A DNA stretch of 64,000 nucleotides from a bacterium (GCA_030691545.1 JAUYEE010000058.1:2041-66040), one strand, 5' to 3'; shown: positions 56,535-64,000, numbered from the stretch's first letter. Notes: a model not told the origin generated them from the sequence alone. Translations and numbers: made by a program.

Positions 56535-58622
56535 ATGCTGCGTAATCTCTGTAACGTTGCACGTCCGCGGTTACTCGTTGCTTTTTTTATGATCGGCGGA
56601 ATGGCCGGAGAGAAGCGGGTTTGGCCGGAGGAGCGGACGCCATCACCGCCTACAGTCGAATGGACGGCGAGGCTGGCTCGGCGAAGAGCGATTGCGGAGG
56701 TTCGCAAGGTCCCTGAAGCTCCGGGGGCATACGTCGAGTTCTTCTCCGGCGAATTGTGCGAACCAAACGGGCAGGACATCAGCATCTTCGATGAGAAAGG
56801 CGTGCGCGCTCCGCACCAGGTTTTGTCTGTTGGTCCGGGAGACCGTTTCCTCATCACGCTCAAGCTTTCCGCCGCGAAGACCTATTATCTTTACTACGGC
56901 CAGCCGGGGACCACTCCGTCGCCCCAGTGGAATCCCGAATGCGGGGTGTTTCTCAGGACGTACCGCCGCCCTTCGGGGAATAGCAATACGGTAGCGGAAC
57001 TCGAAACGATGGTCCGCTCGCTCCGGCAAATGTTCGGCAGCGGCTACAGGGCAGCCATCTTTGACGGGTGCAACCCGTACGGGCCCTCCGACGATTACGC
57101 CTCCGTTTACACCGCCTACTTGAGGATTCCGAAACCCGGGCTGTATTCCTTTGCCACAAACTCAGATGACGCGTCCGCCCTATACCTTGACGGGAAGCTC
57201 ATTGCGGACTACCCGGGCATTCATCAAGCCTCAGCAACAAGGGGGCAGAGGAGCGGCGACGTTTTTCTGAAAGAAGGTGTGCACGTTCTGAGTTACTATC
57301 ACGTGGAATATAGCGGGCCTCAGGCGACGACCGCCGCCTGGAAGCGGCCCGGAGAAGAGTTTTTCACGCCGATTCCCATGGAAGCCTATGTGCCCATCAG
57401 CCCGTGTGTGGTGACCGCTATCGAGGACCGCCGGGGCAGGGTGCTCGATTTCTCTTCCCAAATTGACGAAATCTATGTGCCCGAAGGCGCCGCTCCTCTC
57501 ATTGGCGTGGAGTTTAAGCCTTTTTCTCTCACCCTCGGAGAGAAGGCACAATTTCTCTGGGATTTCGGCGATGGAGAGCGGTCCAGTGAGAAGTCGCCGA
57601 CGCACATCTACCTGAGCGAGCGGCTTTCCCCGGTAACGCTGACCGTCCAGGACGAAGAGAATCGCCGCCATTCGGCCTCGCACTATGTCTATTCCGTTCA
57701 TCTCGAAGAGCGAAACACAACGAATCCGGAGAAAACGAGGGAGACCTTCGAGGAGATTCTCCGCGGGTACACCTGTCAGCGGCTAACTCCCGACGAACTG
57801 GAAACGCTGCACGACTTCTTCGCAGCAGGTCAAGACAATGAAGCACAGACTTCTGCTGTCGCGGCCATGCTCCTGAAGGCTGTCGCGGTTGACCAGCCGG
57901 AACGGCGAGCGAAGTTCCTCCTCTCCTGGGCGGACGCCAACCGCAAGAGCAAGTCAGGGGATGTCCAGAAGCAGCGTGCTCGCTGCTACGAAGAGGCCGT
58001 TCGGATCACTCAGAACAAGAGAACAAAAGCCAGGGCGTTGCTTGATCTCGGCGACGTGCAATTCCGGTTTCTCGGCAACGGCAACGCTGCGCTGGCCTGC
58101 TACCGAACAGTCGCCAACGAAAATGCCGACAAGGAGCTGACACGCCGCTCGATGATCGGCCAGGGCGACGTGTGCCTCCTTTCCGGAGACCTCCTCACGG
58201 CGAGAAAATTCTACGAGCAGGCAGGGGTCCTTCCGGAGCACGAAAGAGGCGCCGAGGCTCTTCGCACGTCTTACGGCAACCTCATCGAGGGATACATCAA
58301 GCAGAAAGAGTTCGACGCGGCTATTGAAGCGATTGAGACGTGGGAGTGGAAGTACCCGATGATTAAGACGCGGGGCTACTCGCTCATCCTGCGGTCACGA
58401 ACTGCGTTCGCCCTCGGGAGCATGGGGGAGGTGCAGAAGTACACAAGCTGTATAATCCGGACCATCGAGGAAGAATCTTTCAAACCGGAAGCATACTATC
58501 TGCTCATCTCATCTCTTCTTCGGCAGGGACAGAACGCAGTTGCGGCGGGTCACTACCAGGCGCTGAAGGAGAGTTACCCGCGAGACCCGCACGTTGAGCT
58601 TCTCCGCCGATTCTTCCCATAA
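56535..58622 (+). CDS. Secreted or membrane multidomain protein: DUF2341-like, PA14-like, PKD and TPR
   Basis: GQDISIFD...YYLYYG; YSFATNSDDASALYLDG (PA14-like); FLWDFGDG..SSEKSPTHIY (PKD); helical TPR-like C-terminus ending YP.DP. Confidence 0.75.
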   Translation: MLRNLCNVARPRLLVAFFMIGGMAGEKRVWPEERTPSPPTVEWTARLARRRAIAEVRKVPEAPGAYVEFFSGELCEPNGQDISIFDEKGVRAPHQVLSVGPGDRFLITLKLSAAKTYYLYYGQPGTTPSPQWNPECGVFLRTYRRPSGNSNTVAELETMVRSLRQMFGSGYRAAIFDGCNPYGPSDDYASVYTAYLRIPKPGLYSFATNSDDASALYLDGKLIADYPGIHQASATRGQRSGDVFLKEGVHVLSYYHVEYSGPQATTAAWKRPGEEFFTPIPMEAYVPISPCVVTAIEDRRGRVLDFSSQIDEIYVPEGAAPLIGVEFKPFSLTLGEKAQFLWDFGDGERSSEKSPTHIYLSERLSPVTLTVQDEENRRHSASHYVYSVHLEERNTTNPEKTRETFEEILRGYTCQRLTPDELETLHDFFAAGQDNEAQTSAVAAMLLKAVAVDQPERRAKFLLSWADANRKSKSGDVQKQRARCYEEAVRITQNKRTKARALLDLGDVQFRFLGNGNAALACYRTVANENADKELTRRSMIGQGDVCLLSGDLLTARKFYEQAGVLPEHERGAEALRTSYGNLIEGYIKQKEFDAAIEAIETWEWKYPMIKTRGYSLILRSRTAFALGSMGEVQKYTSCIIRTIEEESFKPEAYYLLISSLLRQGQNAVAAGHYQALKESYPRDPHVELLRRFFP

Positions 58623-58709: not shown

Positions 58710-59552
58710 TCACTCCGGCGTCCGGGAGAATCCAGGAGGACCACCCTGGTCAAACGAGACAAGACCGGAGTCGCGAACGGTGTCCTGCGGAATGTTGTAC
58801 CGGCGCGTCAGTTCGCCAATTTCGCGCATCCTCTGGAATTGAACCGTGCGATTCACGCGCTCCTCTATTTCCTCGGGATTGTCTTGCTCGTCGAGAGACC
58901 GCAACTGCGCTTCCAGCCACCCTCTTGCTCGGTCGTTATCAACGGCATTCATCGCCTCCGTGAGAAGCCGCTGCGCCTCCGCCTTTTTTTGTTCCGGAGA
59001 CATAGGAGCGGTGTATCGGGCCTTCAATCCTTCGATTTCGTTGACAAACTGGTTGCGCATGGCCGCGTCAGGAATCTTCCCCGAGAAATTCTTCGCGAGG
59101 ATGTCGAGCCTCCGGGTGAGTTCCTGTGGCTCGTTCATGGCGCGAAAGGCTGCTCCGCGGTCTCTCAGTTCTTCAAGTTCGCGGTTCTCCTGCCGCTCCT
59201 CGTGGAAACCTGTGAGCACTCCCTGGACAACCCCGACCTGCTCCTGGAGGAGCGCGATTTGGTTCATAATGTTCTTGTATTCTTCGGTCTTTGCGAAACT
59301 GGAAGACACCATCGGCGCGGAGACCTTGCCCGCGGCGCCTACCGAGCCTCCGCCGAGGAGCGCGCTGATGCCTTTCTCAATGCTGGCGAGTTTCGCTTCG
59401 ACAGAATCCACTTTCTTAGACAACTGCGAAATGCTCTGAGCCTGTTCGTTCTGTCGAGAAATCAAGTCGTCAACGCGACTGCCATCGTTCTTCAAGCAGC
59501 CGCCGCAGAGTAACGCACCCGCGACCGCCAGTCCTAACCATTTCAGTCTCAT
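58710..59552 (-). CDS. Coiled-coil lipoprotein, paralogue 4 of the tandem array (280 aa)
   Basis: MRLKWLGLAVAGALLCGG/C after GGAG RBS; paralogous to the three upstream genes. Confidence 0.85.
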   Translation of the reverse strand: MRLKWLGLAVAGALLCGGCLKNDGSRVDDLISRQNEQAQSISQLSKKVDSVEAKLASIEKGISALLGGGSVGAAGKVSAPMVSSSFAKTEEYKNIMNQIALLQEQVGVVQGVLTGFHEERQENRELEELRDRGAAFRAMNEPQELTRRLDILAKNFSGKIPDAAMRNQFVNEIEGLKARYTAPMSPEQKKAEAQRLLTEAMNAVDNDRARGWLEAQLRSLDEQDNPEEIEERVNRTVQFQRMREIGELTRRYNIPQDTVRDSGLVSFDQGGPPGFSRTPE

Positions 59553-59596
59553 GGCGCTTACTCCTGAAGGAACTACTCCCCGGGGGAAGTCTCCGA

Positions 59597-60481
59597 TCAT
59601 CCTCCCGGGCCGCGTCCACCCGGTCCGCCTCCTCCGGGGCCGCGCCCTCCGCCCATGAAACCTCCGGGGCCGCCGCGACCGAAGGTTACCAGACCGGAGT
59701 CTCTTACCGTGTCCTCCGGGATGCTGTATTTCTGGGTCAGCTCGCCGATCTCCCGCATCTTCTGGAATTGGAGCAGGCGATCAGCTTGCTCTTCTATCTG
59801 CTGTGCTCCTTGCGCCTGGTCCAGTTCCTCCAACTGCCTCTGCAAGCGTTCCCTTTCCCGCTCATCGTCCGCGGAATTCAGCCGTTCAGTCAGAAGTCTG
59901 CGGGCCTCGGCTTGCTTCTCGTCGGGCGAAAGCGACGCGGAGTGCCTGGATTTCAGGGCCTCCAGCTCGCTGACAAACTGGTTTCTCTTCGCCCCCTCAG
60001 GAATCTTACCCGAGAAGTTTTTCGCAAGGATGTCGAGCCTGCGGGTGAGTTCCTGTGGCTCGCTCATGGCGCGCCAGGCTCCCCCACGGTCTCTCAGCGC
60101 TTCCAGTTCGCGGCTCTGCCGCGTCCCCTCTTGGAAACCACCAAGCTCTCCCTGTACAACACCGACTTGCTCCTGCAGCAGGGCGATCTGGTTCATGATG
60201 TTCTTGTACTCGTCGGTCTTCGCGAAAGTCGAAGAACCGATCACCCGAGAGCCCCCGCCTGCATCGGCCCCAGCCCCGCCGCCAAGAAGTGCGTTGATGC
60301 CCTTTTCAATGCTGCTCAGTTTTACATCAACGCCGTCCACTTTCTTAGCTATCTCCGATATCTTCTGCGCGTGCTCGCCCTGACGAGAAAGTAAATCGCC
60401 AATACGATTGTCGCTGCCTTTCGAGCAGCTCGAGCAGCATAATGCTGCCACAGCAAGAAGTCCAAGCAGTTTGGGTATCAT
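59597..60481 (-). CDS. Coiled-coil lipoprotein, paralogue 3 (294 aa), GGRGPGG tail
   Basis: MIPKLLGLLAVAALCCSS/C; FAKTDEYKNIMNQI, RRLDILAKNFSGKI, KYSIPEDTVRDSGL. Confidence 0.85.
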   Translation of the reverse strand: MIPKLLGLLAVAALCCSSCSKGSDNRIGDLLSRQGEHAQKISEIAKKVDGVDVKLSSIEKGINALLGGGAGADAGGGSRVIGSSTFAKTDEYKNIMNQIALLQEQVGVVQGELGGFQEGTRQSRELEALRDRGGAWRAMSEPQELTRRLDILAKNFSGKIPEGAKRNQFVSELEALKSRHSASLSPDEKQAEARRLLTERLNSADDERERERLQRQLEELDQAQGAQQIEEQADRLLQFQKMREIGELTQKYSIPEDTVRDSGLVTFGRGGPGGFMGGGRGPGGGGPGGRGPGG

Positions 60482-60524
60482 GTTGCTTCTCCCTCTATGA
60501 GAATTGCTGCCCACGGCAATTGTC

Positions 60525-61412
60525 TTATCGCCCTCCTCCGGGTCCGCGTCCGCCGGCGCCGCGTCCGCCCGCTCCTCCGCCCATGAAGCCCCCGGGGCCG
60601 CCGCGACCGAAAGATACGATACCGGAATCTCTTACTGTTTCTTCCGGGATGTTGTATTTCCGCGTAAGCTCGCCGATATCCCGCATGTTCTGGAACTGGA
60701 GGACGCGGTCAGCGCGCTCATTCAGTTCGTCCCCCTGGGCCTCGTTCAGGGACTGCAACTGCCTTTCCATCATCTCCTTCATTCGCTCGTCAGTGATCGA
60801 ATTCATGTTTTCGGTGATAAGGGCGCGAGCACGTTGAAGTCTTTCTTCGGGGGAGAGCGAAGCGAAAAGGCCGGCTTTCAGGGCTTCCACGTCTTGACTG
60901 AACTGACTTCGGGTCGCCGCATCCTGGATGTTGCCGGAGAAGTTCTTGACCAGCATGTCGAGCCTTCGCGACATCTCCCCGGGTTGATTCAGGGCATTAA
61001 AGGCCCCTTCTCGGTCTCGGAGCGCTGCGAGTTCTGCGGCAGTTTTCTGGGCCTCCTGGAATCGGACGAAGTCTCCCTGCACAGAGACGACGCGTTCCTG
61101 GAGATTCTTCATCAACTGGAGGACATTCTTATATTCGTCGGCAGAAGCGAAATTGGACGACACGATGAGCTCCGGCCCCTTTTTTGTGGACAGAGCCGTC
61201 GCTCCGCCACCGAGCAACGCCTCAAGGCTCTCCTGTATCTGACCCAATTTCTCGTCAACGTTGTCAATCTGTTTTGACATCTGCGCTATGCGGCGGGCGT
61301 GTTCTTCCTGTTCTTCTAAGAGCCGAGCGACCCGACCGCCGTTGCCACTCTTGGCGCATCCGGAAAAACACAACGCCGCAGCAGCGAGTAGTGCAAGTAA
61401 TCTCAGTAACAT
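60525..61412 (-). CDS. Coiled-coil lipoprotein, paralogue 2 (295 aa), GGRG tail
   Basis: MLLRLLALLAAAALCFSG/C; EYKNV, RRLDMLVKNFSGNI, KYNIPEETVRDSGI. Confidence 0.85.
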   Translation of the reverse strand: MLLRLLALLAAAALCFSGCAKSGNGGRVARLLEEQEEHARRIAQMSKQIDNVDEKLGQIQESLEALLGGGATALSTKKGPELIVSSNFASADEYKNVLQLMKNLQERVVSVQGDFVRFQEAQKTAAELAALRDREGAFNALNQPGEMSRRLDMLVKNFSGNIQDAATRSQFSQDVEALKAGLFASLSPEERLQRARALITENMNSITDERMKEMMERQLQSLNEAQGDELNERADRVLQFQNMRDIGELTRKYNIPEETVRDSGIVSFGRGGPGGFMGGGAGGRGAGGRGPGGGR

Positions 61413-61472
61413 GGCATCTTTTCCTCTGGAGTTTTGTGCGGTTTTTCGGGTGTGACTTCTTCTCATCAGGAC

Positions 61473-62357
61473 TCACCCTCCTCTGCGTCCTTGCTGTCCG
61501 CCACGGTCGCCCCGGTTGATCCCGGCGGGTCCGCCGCGGTCGCCTCCCATGGACGGAAGCCCAATTTCCGTGTAAGTTTCCCTTGGAATCTCGTAGGTAC
61601 TCTGCAAGTTCCTGAGGTCGCGAGAGATCTCAAATCGCTGGTAACGCTCCAGTCTTCCCTGCAAGTCCTCGCCGGAGGCCGTCTGGAGTTCCTCAATCTG
61701 CCTCTGGATGAACTCCTTGGCTCTCTCGTTTTGCTCCGTGTTCAGCCTTTCGGTAAGGCTCGAGGACACTCTCTGATAAAGCTCCTGAGCGCTGGGCTTC
61801 TCCGACAGTTTCCGTTTGAGCTGCTCGACGTCCACCTCAAACTGCTGTCGTTTCACAGGGTCCTGGATTTTCCCGGCGAAATTCTGACCGAGAAGGCTGA
61901 GCCTCCGGTTCATTTCCTGGGGGTCGCTCATCGCTTGGAAGGCTTGTGCGGGGTCCTGGAGTTGCCGGCGCTGCTCCTCTGCGGCGACCTCATCCTGGCT
62001 TTCGGTCAGCCGGCTCTGTGTGAGAGCCAACTGTTGCTGAACCGCCGAAAGCTGCGCGACAATCCGGGCGTATTCCGGCGTGTCTTTGAACTCGACGACC
62101 TTGGGCTCCGTGCTCTCCTCCGCCGCGGTCGTAGGTTGCGGAGTACCGGTCGGCTCAGGGAGTCGCTTCAAAGACTCCTGAATCTGCACGAGCCTTTTGT
62201 CGAATCCTTCGATGCGCCGGGACAACCGGTCTATGTCCCCTTTGTGTTCGTCCTGCTTGACACCGACTTCAATCAGGCGACTGTCTGAGCTTTCCTTCCC
62301 ACAGCCAGACAAAAGGAGCAAAGCCCCAATCACCCATAACGCTGCATATCTCGCCAT
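61473..62357 (-). CDS. Coiled-coil lipoprotein, paralogue 1 (294 aa, most divergent)
   Basis: AAGGAGG RBS; MARYAALWVIGALLLLSG/C; PEY, RRLSLLGQNFAGKIQD, YEIPRET; DRGG tail. Confidence 0.85.
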   Translation of the reverse strand: MARYAALWVIGALLLLSGCGKESSDSRLIEVGVKQDEHKGDIDRLSRRIEGFDKRLVQIQESLKRLPEPTGTPQPTTAAEESTEPKVVEFKDTPEYARIVAQLSAVQQQLALTQSRLTESQDEVAAEEQRRQLQDPAQAFQAMSDPQEMNRRLSLLGQNFAGKIQDPVKRQQFEVDVEQLKRKLSEKPSAQELYQRVSSSLTERLNTEQNERAKEFIQRQIEELQTASGEDLQGRLERYQRFEISRDLRNLQSTYEIPRETYTEIGLPSMGGDRGGPAGINRGDRGGQQGRRGG

Positions 62358-62680
62358 TTGCAGACCTCCTTGATAGAGTTTTCCGAATGAAGGCAGGGGC
62401 CTCCGTTCTTTTATTATATTTTAACGTCATCGGGGCTACACGGGTTTAGTGTCTCGCCAGTGTAGAGAAGTTATCCTCTTCACCGTTCGCCAGCGGCTCA
62501 GCGAAGCCGCGCCCCGCCGGACAAGCGTTGTTCGCCCTTCGCAACGTAGGATACCATATTTCCCGTGGGTTACGGAAGCAGCTTTTCGCGCAGGGTGTGG
62601 CTACGTTGGAATGGGACATGCCGCCGGGATTTGCCTGTGACGGGGGTGCTGAGTCCAGGGCCACTCGGGGGCGACTCTCT

Positions 62681-62810
62681 GTAACGCCGGCATCTTGCCG
62701 GCTGTCTCGGGGGCATCTTGCCCCCGGTTCGACTTCGCCAGGGTGAAACAGGGTGCTTGCCATGTGAGGGCGGGACGCCCTCACGACTGCCGCCGGGACG
62801 GCGGCGTTAC
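62681..62810. repeat. REP/BIME-like cluster of palindromes
   Basis: GTAACGCCG...CGGCGTTAC encloses GCCGGCATCTTGCCGGC, GGGGGCATCTTGCCCCC and GTGAGGGCGGGACGCCCTCAC. Confidence 0.75.
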
Positions 62811-63208
62811 TTCTGGCATCCCACCGGGCCAACAGCCCAAGGCCCACCACTCAAGTGCAGCCGCACCCTTCGCACAGCAGTATGACCGCCTGAAGCGTCG
62901 CCATTCCAAAGGAGAACGCACTTTCTGTATTGACTGGGAACGGGTTGCGCACTAAATTATGAATAGCGCGTTTTGCGGGACAAAGCTATCGGGATTGAGG
63001 TAGCTGCACGCGTCTATCTCTCCATCCCTTCGGCTCGCGTTTGATGATTCCGCAGAAGCGCTGCCCGCTGCGTCCAACGCGGGAGGATAGAGCTGTTTTG
63101 CACTCATCCCTGGCCGTTCAGGCGGACGCCGTCCGGAAGCGCGCTCAGTCCAATGGGTCCCGTCCCACGCGTGTGCGCGAACACGGGCAGGCGAGGAAGG
63201 GGCGGACG

Positions 63209-64000
63209 ATGAGAAAGACTGCCTGGCTCGCTTTATGGGGCATGAGCCTTTTTGCTGGCTTTGCCGTAGGGATAGCCGTCGGCAAGGCCCACAAACCTGA
63301 GGTCCAACGTCGCCAGCCTACCACGAGAACCATTCCTGAAGACAAAGACCGCGAGGAAGCCCGCCTTCTCGCCAGCCTGGATGAATTCCGCAACGCCCTC
63401 ACTGAGAAAGAGCAAATCGCCGCCAGCTTGCGCGCGGAGATCGAAGAGGTGCGGGGCAAAATGCTCCCGCCGCTGAGTCCAGAGGATGAGAAATGGCTTC
63501 GGCAAGAGCAAAAGGAGCGAGGCTACGCGAAGCGCTGGGACCCAATCCGGAAAAGGGGAGAGGAACTTCTCAAAAAGATTTTTCAGCGGAAGGACAACGT
63601 GCTGCGACAGAAGGGACTCGACGAACTGGAGTCGCTTCTCAAAAACGACAAAGCCCAGGATAAGCTGGTGGGCCTATGGACCCTGAACAAAATTCTCTTC
63701 GAAGGAGTCGGGCTCGACAAGAAGAGATTCACGCCGCTGCTTGCGGCAGCTCTGGACCACGACGACGGGGAAGTGAGAGAGAATGCGCTCGAACACCTTG
63801 GATACCTTGGCTATTCGGACTATCCCTGGATGGATCGTCCGGAGAAGCGGGAAGCGGCAGACGTGGCCCTGCGCATGGTGAACGATCCGGACACTCGCGT
63901 GAAGAGCACCGCGCTTCGTCTTCTTGCGGATTTCGGTGGAAAGGAAAGAGACAAAGGCATCGCCAAGGCCTTAAGGTCGCTTCTCCAAGATGGAAGTGAG
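63209..64000 (+). CDS. Membrane-anchored coiled-coil + HEAT-repeat protein, 3'-truncated by the window edge (not in the ORF track)
   Basis: Read manually with no stop to the end: MRKTAWLALWGMSLFAGFAVGIAVG...LRAEIEEVRG...ALDHDDGEVRENALEHLG...VNDPDTRVKSTALRLLA. AGGAAGGGG RBS-like site. Confidence 0.8.
   Translation, partial: MRKTAWLALWGMSLFAGFAVGIAVGKAHKPEVQRRQPTTRTIPEDKDREEARLLASLDEFRNALTEKEQIAASLRAEIEEVRGKMLPPLSPEDEKWLRQEQKERGYAKRWDPIRKRGEELLKKIFQRKDNVLRQKGLDELESLLKNDKAQDKLVGLWTLNKILFEGVGLDKKRFTPLLAAALDHDDGEVRENALEHLGYLGYSDYPWMDRPEKREAADVALRMVNDPDTRVKSTALRLLADFGGKERDKGIAKALRSLLQDGSE

What the first reader, a model, noticed from the sequence alone, without database searches (positions are those of the whole stretch)
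58710..62357. Four tandem paralogous coiled-coil lipoproteins with RGG/GGPGG tails: candidate undescribed envelope complex
Seen: four co-oriented genes of nearly equal length (280-295 aa), each with its own RBS and lipobox Cys. Each has a heptad-rich N-segment, a Gly/Pro linker, a second helix (F.xTxEY.xI..Q...LQ.Q), a conserved RRL.xL..NF.G.I.D..xR.QF core and a Y.IP..T...SG motif. Most end in a low-complexity GG/RG tail. I recognise no family. Inference: retained divergent paralogues in one operon suggest a hetero-oligomer, such as a periplasm-spanning strut, membrane tether or channel, or interchangeable variants. RGG-type tails are better known from RNA-binding and phase-separating proteins, so they are unexpected on exported lipoproteins.
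Basis: partly seen in the sequence, partly recalled or inferred. Interest (0 to 1): 0.78.

Follow-up and report, generated by a model that had tools for sequence, protein, structure and literature searches.

The report
Unnamed helical lipoprotein family, four tandem copies
Four neighbouring genes encode members of a previously undescribed family of exported, probably lipid-anchored, all-helical proteins with glycine/arginine-rich tails; the family is confined to one small uncultured bacterial lineage, has no recognisable relative or fold match, and its role in the cell envelope is still only inferred.

Summary
Four co-oriented minus-strand genes (A 61473-62357, B 60525-61412, C 59597-60481, D 58710-59552) encode 280-295 aa paralogues. 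Each has a ribosome-binding site, a signal peptide with Cys at position 19, a significant heptad coiled coil, a Gly-rich linker, a second helix and a conserved ~140-aa helical core ending in Y-x-I-P. A, B and C also have a basic Gly/Arg tail.

Pfam, NCBIfam, PHROGs, PADLOC and PDB sequences give no match. A confident core model (pLDDT 89.7, pTM 0.80) has no fold match. Only 113 of 1.84 billion representative proteins match the family profile.

All 10 species genomes of the class carry it, at 2-8 copies, always including an adjacent pair. The window holds one A-type gene plus a lineage-specific triplication of the C-type gene, under purifying selection (dN/dS 0.15-0.21).

Relatives in sister lineages join 2-3 cores in one chain. 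One relative carries the module as the outer sensor domain of a BlaR1-type protease.

Gene neighbours differ by lineage: S41 protease/YibQ, Mla lipid transport, or HEAT and PA14 proteins.

Best reading: a new envelope lipoprotein family that assembles through its coiled coil, probably as A/C hetero-oligomers. The function is untested.

The parts
61473..62357 (-). Gene A (294 aa), the A-type family member and first gene of the cluster
   Evidence: ORF. AAGGAGG lies at 62365-62371, 7 nt before the ATG. It groups with the A-type orthologues in the tree.
60525..61412 (-). Gene B (295 aa from the ATG at 61412; the longest ORF starts at 61466), C-type paralogue
   Evidence: ORF. GAGGA lies at 61422-61426, 9 nt before the ATG. 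B, C and D form one clade inside the C-type group.
59597..60481 (-). Gene C (294 aa from the ATG at 60481; the longest ORF starts at the GTG at 60514), C-type paralogue
   Evidence: ORF. GAGGGAGAAG lies at 60486-60495. Tree. This is the protein modelled.
58710..59552 (-). Gene D (280 aa from the ATG at 59552; the longest ORF starts at 59600), C-type paralogue with a short tail
   Evidence: ORF. AGGAG lies at 59561-59565, 8 nt before the ATG. Tree.
62301..62357 (-). A: signal peptide MARYAALWVIGALLLLSG plus the lipobox Cys19 (codon 62301-62303)
   Evidence: Canonical lipobox LLSGC; passes both the PROSITE-like and the DOLOP patterns.
61356..61412 (-). B: signal peptide MLLRLLALLAAAALCFSG plus Cys19
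   Evidence: n- and h-regions are present with S-G-C, but C at -4 fails the strict patterns.
60425..60481 (-). C: signal peptide MIPKLLGLLAVAALCCSS plus Cys19
   Evidence: Atypical lipobox CCSSC. The Cys column is at least 90% conserved across 31 family members.
59496..59552 (-). D: signal peptide MRLKWLGLAVAGALLCGG plus Cys19
   Evidence: Atypical lipobox LCGGC.
62157..62288 (-). A: N-terminal heptad coiled coil (about 6 heptads)
   Evidence: Periodicity 3.45; 0.2% of shuffles reach it; a/d residues LQIILL/VHLFIL.
61212..61343 (-). B: N-terminal heptad coiled coil
   Evidence: Periodicity 3.45; 0 of 2000 shuffles reach it.
60284..60412 (-). C: N-terminal heptad coiled coil, followed by a Gly-rich linker (60227-60283) and a second amphipathic helix (60098-60226)
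   Evidence: Periodicity 3.45; 0.1% of shuffles reach it. Helices at residues 35-78 and 101-141 of the 305-aa ORF model. Coordinates.
59355..59483 (-). D: N-terminal heptad coiled coil
   Evidence: Periodicity 3.45; 0.05% of shuffles reach it.
61548..61961 (-). A: conserved helical core module (LQDP ... YEIP ... GLPSM)
   Evidence: Alignments; coordinates.
60609..61022 (-). B: conserved helical core module
59681..60097 (-). C: conserved helical core module, eight helices, ending in YSIPEDTVRDSGLVTF
   Evidence: Core-only AlphaFold2 model with pLDDT 89.7 and pTM 0.80. No fold match.
58752..59168 (-). D: conserved helical core module
61476..61547 (-). A: Gly/Arg tail GGDRGGPAGINRGDRGGQQGRRGG (3 RGG, including one di-RGG)
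60528..60608 (-). B: Gly/Arg tail GRGGPGGFMGGGAGGRGAGGRGPGGGR
   Evidence: 63% Gly, net charge +4.
59600..59680 (-). C: Gly/Arg tail GRGGPGGFMGGGRGPGGGGPGGRGPGG
   Evidence: 67% Gly, net charge +3. Predicted disordered, pLDDT about 40.
58713..58751 (-). D: short tail DQGGPPGFSRTPE (no RG motif)

Best explanation
**What is shown.** The locus encodes one A-type and three C-type members of an undescribed protein family restricted to one small lineage. Each protein has:
- a Sec-type signal peptide ending in a conserved Cys (a lipoprotein signal, canonical in A and in most of the family);
- a ~6-heptad coiled coil;
- a flexible Gly-rich linker;
- a second amphipathic helix;
- a compact eight-helix core of about 140 aa with no known fold relative;
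- usually a disordered, basic Gly/Arg tail.

Every genome of the class keeps at least one adjacent pair of these genes. The genes are under purifying selection.

**What is inferred.**
- After export the proteins are lipid-anchored on the periplasmic face of a membrane. Which membrane is unknown.
- They assemble through the N-terminal coiled coil into oligomers that mix A-type and C-type chains. The beta-branched a/d residues, with a conserved polar Q/H layer, lean towards trimers.
- The helical heads sit several nanometres from the membrane and act as binding modules for another envelope component.
- The basic tails make loose electrostatic contacts with anionic envelope material (peptidoglycan, lipid head groups or polysaccharide) or with the acidic cores of neighbouring molecules.
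- The extra C-type copies in this genome add dosage or variant subunits.

In short, it probably works like a stalked envelope scaffold or tether, in the manner of Lpp or CpoB. It is not a member of those families.
For: - **Gene structure and signals:**
- **Lipoprotein machinery:** LspA is present in the genome. The lipobox is canonical in A-type and f2 members.
- **Extracytoplasmic location:** the whole module follows the last membrane segment of a BlaR1-type M56 protein. That protein has a BlaI-type repressor gene 3 nt upstream, and the arrangement is seen in two samples.
- **Coiled coil:** the heptad signal is significant in all four proteins. The PDB profile hits to this segment are trimeric coiled coils.
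- **Core:** the model is confident and all-helical.
- **Multi-module use:** 10 of 10 class genomes keep an adjacent pair. A-type and C-type orthologue groups keep a fixed gene order in five genomes and two metagenome contigs. Sister lineages carry 2-3 cores in one lipoprotein chain.
- **Selection:** dN/dS is 0.15-0.21 with saturated dS.
- **Charge pattern:** the tail is basic and the core acidic (core net -5 to -8, tail +3 to +4). Basic tails persist even in the multi-core relatives.
- **Envelope context elsewhere:** an S41 peptidase plus a YibQ-like deacetylase operon in f2, and MlaEFD-PqiC in f12.
Against:
- B, C and D fail strict lipobox patterns. No LolA match was found in the genome, so outer-membrane placement cannot be assumed.
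- No single partner gene is conserved across lineages, so the binding target is unknown.
- The second helix has no significant heptad signal.
- AlphaFold gives low confidence for the N-terminal helices as a monomer, which neither supports nor refutes oligomers.
- The midpoint-rooted tree puts the f1 and f2 pairs in separate clades. The pairing may therefore have arisen twice or been homogenised, and it is not necessarily one ancient heteromer.
Confidence: 0.4

Rival explanations
1. The proteins are adaptors or substrates of a periplasmic C-terminal-processing (S41, tail-specific) protease. The helical lipoprotein would dock the protease, as NlpI does for Prc and LbcA does for CtpA. Alternatively, the disordered C-terminal tail is the piece the protease's PDZ domain recognises and trims.
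For: In all five genomes of the sister taxonomic family f2, the pair lies directly downstream of an S41 CtpB-like peptidase and a YibQ-like deacetylase. It is co-directional, with a 20-nt gap in L012. One member of each f2 pair ends in a conserved aromatic GGAYGW(R/E/Q) C-terminus. That known adaptors of such proteases are helical lipoproteins is established knowledge, not tested here.
Against: In the window's own genome the S41 and YibQ genes sit together on another contig with no family member beside them. There is no such linkage in f1 or f12. The core has no TPR signature. Synteny confined to one taxonomic family may simply be inherited gene order.
Confidence: 0.15
2. The proteins are accessory lipoproteins of envelope lipid trafficking. 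The helical modules would bind lipid or dock onto an MCE/Mla transporter that spans the periplasm.
For: In four genomes of family f12, and on three metagenome contigs, the multi-core relative lies directly upstream of and co-directional with MlaE, MlaF, MlaD and a PqiC-like lipoprotein gene. The gaps are 74-490 nt.
Against: The linkage is absent in f17, f20, one f12 genus, f1 and f2. The own genome's Mla genes on C281 have no family copy nearby. There is no fold similarity to MlaA, MlaC or apolipoproteins.
Confidence: 0.1
3. The proteins are a peptidoglycan tether in the strict Lpp sense: an outer-membrane lipoprotein trimer whose far end is fixed to the cell wall and sets the width of the periplasm.
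For: The N-terminus has a lipobox followed by a coiled coil. One JGI record auto-names a member 'outer membrane murein-binding lipoprotein Lpp'. The a/d residues are trimer-leaning.
Against: BLASTP against E. coli Lpp gives E = 0.4. The NCBIfam Lpp model scores 11 bits against a cut-off of 108. None of 28 family members ends in Lys. No LolA was found. No peptidoglycan-binding domain was detected.
Confidence: 0.1
4. The proteins are periplasmic stress chaperones of the Spy/CpxP/Skp kind, with the disordered tail helping to hold clients.
For: They are all-helical, exported and multi-copy, with an acidic core and a flexible tail.
Against: No LTXXQ/CpxP, Skp or other chaperone family appears even at E up to 5. 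There is no fold match. Those chaperones are soluble, not lipid-anchored (established knowledge).
Confidence: 0.07
5. The copies are interchangeable surface variants. Tandem copies would exchange segments by gene conversion to vary an exposed lipoprotein, for example against phage or grazers.
For: Nucleotide identity is mosaic. C resembles D at 0.85-0.90 in the middle of the gene and resembles B at 0.85 at the 3' end, against a background of about 0.55.
Against: dN/dS is 0.15-0.21 and dS is saturated, so there is no sign of diversifying selection or recent exchange. The most conserved parts are the core and its motifs. No invertible or switchable promoter was seen. Surface exposure is unsupported.
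Confidence: 0.06

Closest known systems
Braun's lipoprotein Lpp (E. coli major outer-membrane lipoprotein)
   Same: Signal peptide with a lipobox Cys, followed at once by a heptad coiled coil with trimer-leaning core residues. One public record auto-labels a family member as Lpp.
   Different: No detectable sequence homology. About five times longer, with a linker, a second helix, a 140-aa helical head and a Gly/Arg tail. No C-terminal Lys for covalent attachment to peptidoglycan. Membrane location unknown.
NlpI (partner of Prc) and LbcA (partner of CtpA): helical lipoprotein adaptors of S41 C-terminal-processing proteases
   Same: Helical lipoproteins. In sister family f2 the pair sits in an apparent operon with an S41 protease.
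   Different: Those adaptors are TPR proteins, and no TPR signal or fold match is seen here. The protease linkage is absent from this genome.
CpoB/YbgF (periplasmic trimeric coiled coil plus helical-repeat head)
   Same: Overall plan: an N-terminal coiled-coil stalk carrying a C-terminal all-helical binding domain in the periplasm. This comparison rests on established knowledge of CpoB, not on a test here.
   Different: CpoB is soluble, its head is TPR, and it belongs to the tol-pal operon. None of these applies here.
Extracytoplasmic sensor domains of BlaR1/MecR1-type M56 signal transducers
   Same: One relative (P0073) has the complete module in the sensor position, with a BlaI-type repressor gene upstream.
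   Different: The window's proteins are free-standing lipoproteins with no M56 domain. The known BlaR1 sensor is a penicillin-binding fold, not a helical bundle.
Spy/CpxP/ZraP periplasmic helical stress proteins
   Same: Small, helical and exported. Some members carry Gly-rich low-complexity segments (from memory, not tested).
   Different: No LTXXQ or related Pfam match. No fold match. Those proteins are not lipoproteins.
RGG/RG-motif tails of eukaryotic RNA-binding proteins
   Same: Gly/Arg-rich, disordered and positively charged. A carries a formal di-RGG motif.
   Different: The tails sit on exported proteins. B and C have one RGG each plus RG dipeptides, and D has none. No nucleic-acid context.

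Membership tests
Bacterial lipoproteins (signal peptidase II substrates) | N-terminal signal peptide with a basic n-region and a hydrophobic h-region | tested here: met
   All four proteins have K/R within residues 2-4 and then 12-14 uncharged residues.
Bacterial lipoproteins (signal peptidase II substrates) | Lipobox [LVI][ASTVI][GAS]C, or the PROSITE PS00013-type pattern | tested here: inconclusive
   A passes both patterns. B, C and D fail only at positions -3 or -4, where they have C or F. Across the family 15 of 28 pass the PROSITE-like pattern, and the Cys column is at least 90% conserved. SignalP and LipoP were not available.
Bacterial lipoproteins (signal peptidase II substrates) | The organism has the processing enzyme LspA | tested here: met
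   PF01252 matches at 119 bits on contig C137.
Bacterial lipoproteins (signal peptidase II substrates) | Lol pathway for delivery to the outer membrane | tested here: not met
   No PF03548 (LolA) match in the 94%-complete genome. The model rings in only 5 of 14 control genomes, so this is weak evidence of absence.
Lpp (Braun's lipoprotein; NCBIfam PRK15396) | Sequence homology to Lpp | tested here: not met
   11 bits against a cut-off of 108. BLASTP E = 0.4.
Lpp (Braun's lipoprotein; NCBIfam PRK15396) | C-terminal Lys that is cross-linked to peptidoglycan | tested here: not met
   The four proteins end in G, R, G and E. None of the 28 family members ends in K.
Lpp (Braun's lipoprotein; NCBIfam PRK15396) | Trimeric coiled coil | tested here: inconclusive
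   The heptad signal is significant and the a/d residues are rich in I/V with a Q/H layer. The oligomeric state cannot be determined with these tools.
Spy/CpxP/ZraP (LTXXQ, Pfam PF07813/PF13801) | Match to the family profile | tested here: not met
   No such hit at E up to 1 for the full proteins or up to 5 for 16 cores.
TPR lipoprotein adaptors (NlpI, LbcA) | TPR repeats | tested here: not met
   No TPR Pfam hit in the four proteins or the 16 cores, although the same scan found TPR in the neighbouring gene. There are no TPR structures among the fold hits.
RGG/RG-motif proteins (di-/tri-RGG, as I recall the definition of Thandapani et al. 2013) | At least two RGG within 0-4 residues of each other (di-RGG), or three RG so spaced | tested here: inconclusive
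   A meets di-RGG. B and C have one RGG and three RG, but not in the defined spacing. D has none. Several orthologues meet di-RGG or tri-RG.
SAP/HeH helix-extended-helix motif | Profile or fold match over the motif | tested here: inconclusive
   There is only a local 44-residue Foldseek match to the Tho1 SAP domain (probability 0.77, E = 5). No SAP, HeH or Rho_N Pfam hit.

The most novel reading that the evidence does not exclude
In this uncultured lineage, A-type and C-type chains form hetero-oligomeric, lipid-anchored stalks. Their new-fold heads and multivalent basic Gly/Arg tails would knit an electrostatic network with acidic envelope polymers or with each other. That would be a periplasmic scaffold or condensate-like layer taking the place of Lpp-type tethers, and one that the cell can also monitor through a BlaR1-type sensor carrying the same module.
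Probability: 0.1. Interest if true: 0.75.

Novelty: new variant of a known kind. Interest (0 to 1): 0.42.

Why it matters
This family is a hallmark of one poorly known, uncultured lineage. It is present in every genome of the class and in multiple copies, yet it has no sequence or fold relative anywhere else. That makes it a good candidate for a lineage-specific solution to envelope architecture.

If the hetero-oligomer and tail-binding ideas hold, it would add a new type of periplasmic scaffold. It would also be a rare case of RG/RGG-like disordered tails acting outside the cytoplasm. The confident model of a helical domain without a PDB match makes it a reasonable target for structure determination.

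If the ideas do not hold, it remains one more lineage-specific domain of unknown function.

Tried and rejected
- **Profile libraries.** Pfam, NCBIfam, PHROGs and PADLOC scans gave only sub-threshold coiled-coil noise, such as FapA, Rootletin, LmuB and SpiroCoCo_N. Weak DUF445 hits recur in 3 of 16 cores (best E = 7e-4, far below the cut-off). I judged them compositional.
- **PDB sequence profiles.** The full-length profile hit only trimeric coiled-coil constructs, on the N-terminal helix. The core profile hit nothing below E = 0.03.
- **Fold searches.** Foldseek on the full model and on the core model against the PDB and BFVD found nothing with E below 0.7 or TM above 0.37.
- **RNA families.** Rfam found nothing in the window.
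- **Promoters and terminators.** The scan found no convincing internal terminator or promoter, and counts were near shuffle expectation.
- **Codon bias.** I started this as an abundance proxy and dropped it. No ribosomal-protein reference set was easy to obtain: the candidate region turned out to be nusA-infB-pnp. The inference would also be weak in a slow-growing uncultured organism.
- **Literature.** Two full-text searches found nothing on this family.
- **Earlier scan notes.** They hold nothing on this family.
- **Phage or defence origin.** Rejected: no such family matches and no mobile context in this window.
- **Pseudogene or artefact.** Rejected on dN/dS and on conservation across 10 genomes.

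Full report
**What is there.** The minus strand of 58710-62357 carries four consecutive ORFs.
- Most homologues start at an internal ATG that follows a Shine-Dalgarno-like motif 6-10 nt upstream. With those starts the products are A 294 aa (61473-62357), B 295 aa (60525-61412), C 294 aa (59597-60481) and D 280 aa (58710-59552). The gaps between genes are 60, 43 and 44 nt.
- All four align over their full length at 32-62% identity.
- No convincing terminator or promoter lies inside the cluster. An operon is therefore plausible, but it rests on spacing alone.

**Anatomy.** With the proposed starts, Cys is residue 19 in all four proteins.
- A has a textbook lipobox, LLSGC. B, C and D have small residues at -1 and -2 but Cys or Phe at -3 or -4, and they fail strict patterns.
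- Across the family the Cys column is at least 90% conserved. A-type proteins and all members from the sister taxonomic family f2 have canonical L-(A/S)-G-C boxes. The genome encodes LspA. I found no LolA, so I do not assign a membrane.
- After the Cys comes a stretch of about 42 residues with significant heptad periodicity in all four. The best period is 3.45, and at most 0.2% of shuffles reach it. The a/d residues are rich in I/V with a conserved Q/H polar layer.
- Next come a ~20-residue Gly-rich linker, a 43-residue amphipathic helix without a significant heptad signal, and a ~140-residue core.
- AlphaFold2 models the core with high confidence. It scores pLDDT about 90 within the full chain. 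On its own it scores pLDDT 89.7 and pTM 0.80, as eight helices ending in the Y-x-I-P turn.
- The tails of A, B and C are 24-27 residues, 46-67% Gly, net charge +3 to +4, and predicted disordered. The rest of each mature protein is acidic, with net charge -5 to -8. D has only a 13-residue stub.
- A contains three RGG including one di-RGG. B and C have one RGG and three RG each.

**No known family.**
- Pfam, NCBIfam, PHROGs and PADLOC give only sub-threshold coiled-coil noise.
- PDB sequence profiles hit only coiled-coil constructs on the N-terminal helix and nothing for the core.
- Foldseek with the full model and with the confident core model finds nothing in the PDB or BFVD. The best E-values are about 0.8, and TM does not exceed 0.37.
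- The only local signal is a 44-residue resemblance between the final helix-YxIP-helix and a SAP domain. No profile supports it.
- One JGI record auto-names a member 'Lpp'. Direct comparison with E. coli Lpp gives E = 0.4, and no family member ends in Lys.

**How wide the family is.**
- An exhaustive profile search of 1.84 billion representative proteins returned 113 hits, about 90 of them true members.
- NCBI records label the relatives as Verrucomicrobiota. The genome collection used here places the organism in a phylum-level group of only 79 species genomes, so I cannot name the lineage more precisely.
- All 10 species genomes of the class carry the family. Copy number is 2-3 in taxonomic family f2 and 4-8 in f1, with 8 in this genome.
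- Outside the class, 9 of 69 genomes carry the core, always as 2-3 tandem copies within one ~380-480 aa lipoprotein.

**Evolution of the cluster.**
- A maximum-likelihood tree of 28 copies separates, within f1, an A-type group and a C-type group (support 92/90 and 91/96).
- In five genomes and two metagenome contigs the A-type gene lies immediately upstream of the C-type gene.
- The window's B, C and D form one clade inside the C-type group (92/96). The cluster is therefore one A-type gene plus a lineage-specific triplication.
- The duplicates are old (dS 1.4-2.9) and under purifying selection (dN/dS 0.15-0.21).
- Nucleotide identity is mosaic. C matches D at 0.85-0.90 in the middle third and matches B at 0.85 in the last fifth, against a background of about 0.55. 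This suggests past gene conversion.
- The f2 genomes have their own adjacent pair. In the midpoint-rooted tree it forms a separate clade, so the pairing either arose twice or has been homogenised.
- The other four copies in this genome are scattered on contigs C307, C255, C264 and C206. The C264 type has a signal peptide without a Cys and lacks the second helix.

**Context.** No partner gene is conserved across lineages.
- In f1, arrays of 4-6 paralogous HEAT-repeat genes lie divergent from the A gene in three contexts. A 695-715 aa PA14/PKD/TPR gene lies convergent after the last gene in three contexts.
- In all five f2 genomes the pair closes a co-directional run of epimerase, S41 C-terminal-processing peptidase and YibQ-like deacetylase, and is followed by MarC. 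In this genome S41 and YibQ sit together elsewhere without a family member.
- In four f12 genomes the multi-core relative precedes MlaE, MlaF, MlaD and a PqiC-like gene. This does not hold in f17, f20 or one other f12 genus.
- One relative, seen in two samples, carries the whole module after the last membrane segment of a BlaR1-type M56 protein, with a BlaI-type repressor gene 3 nt upstream.
- Taken together, these contexts place the module outside the cytoplasmic membrane and among envelope functions. They do not name a function.

**Interpretation.**
- Shown: this is a real, conserved, exported protein family with a new helical core. It is kept in adjacent pairs and is expanded here.
- Inferred: lipid anchoring, coiled-coil oligomers that mix A-type and C-type chains, a binding role for the heads, and electrostatic contacts by the tails.
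- The fusion of several cores into one chain in sister lineages is the best indirect argument that several modules work side by side.
- The rival readings each rest on one lineage's synteny or on general resemblance, and each has specific evidence against it. They are an S41-protease adaptor or substrate, an Mla accessory, a strict Lpp-like wall tether, a chaperone, and variable surface proteins.
- I put 0.4 on the scaffold/tether reading as a whole. I put much higher confidence, about 0.85, on the descriptive part.

**Verdict.** This is an uncharacterised, lineage-restricted lipoprotein family. It is a new variant within the broad kind of coiled-coil envelope lipoproteins, with a core that has no fold relative in the libraries available. 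It is of moderate interest and worth multimer modelling and a structure, but no surprising mechanism has been demonstrated.

Noticed in passing
window 62593-62867 (inner part 62680-62810): The 683-bp gap between gene A and the divergent HEAT gene is mostly a ~275-bp repeat. It has at least 10 near-full copies (82-91% identity) on other contigs. A nested ~130-bp element inside it gives about 100 hits across the genome, often split into two ~50-bp arms, which looks MITE- or REP-like. The 134-aa ORF at 62446-62850 is therefore probably spurious.
   Followed up: partly
window 63041-64000 (+); L010 1-4706; L027 12448-19626: The gene divergent from A encodes a protein with a membrane anchor, a coiled coil and HEAT repeats. 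Relatives carry 4-6 tandem paralogues of it beside the lipoprotein pair. This is a second expanded, unexplained family at the same locus.
   Followed up: partly
window 56535-58622 (+): A 695-aa PA14/PKD/TPR protein lies convergent with gene D. Orthologues at 62-66% identity occupy the same position in L009 and G003, but not in G002.
   Followed up: partly
L012 3131-9702; L030, L037, L038, L040: In sister family f2 there is a conserved co-directional cluster: epimerase, S41 CtpB-like peptidase, Polysacc_deac_2 (YibQ-like), lipoprotein pair, MarC. One member of each pair ends in GGAYGW(R/E/Q).
   Followed up: yes
L043 1558-7075; L046, L047, L050, L052: A multi-core (2-3x) lipoprotein relative lies directly upstream of MlaE (with a fused STAS domain), MlaF, MlaD and a PqiC-like gene in four f12 genomes.
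   Followed up: yes
L041 2138-4626: A BlaI-type repressor gene is followed after 3 nt by a BlaR1-type M56 protein whose extracytoplasmic part is the complete coiled-coil plus core module. The former lipobox (TFGC) is still visible after the last membrane segment.
   Followed up: partly
G000 C307:33250-34110: This scattered copy is orthologous to the third gene of the G003 cluster (100/99 support). Its frame stops right after the core (…SGGLFGNQ*), so this subtype lacks the Gly/Arg tail.
   Followed up: partly
L010 9524-13387: In one metagenome relative, a phage integrase, an HTH gene and a capsid gene are inserted immediately downstream of the pair, where the PA14 gene sits elsewhere.
   Followed up: no
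whole genome G000: NCBI titles call the relatives Verrucomicrobiota. The GTDB-based tool's 'phylum' holds only 79 species genomes and the 'class' only 10, so the organism belongs to a small, separately ranked lineage.
   Followed up: no
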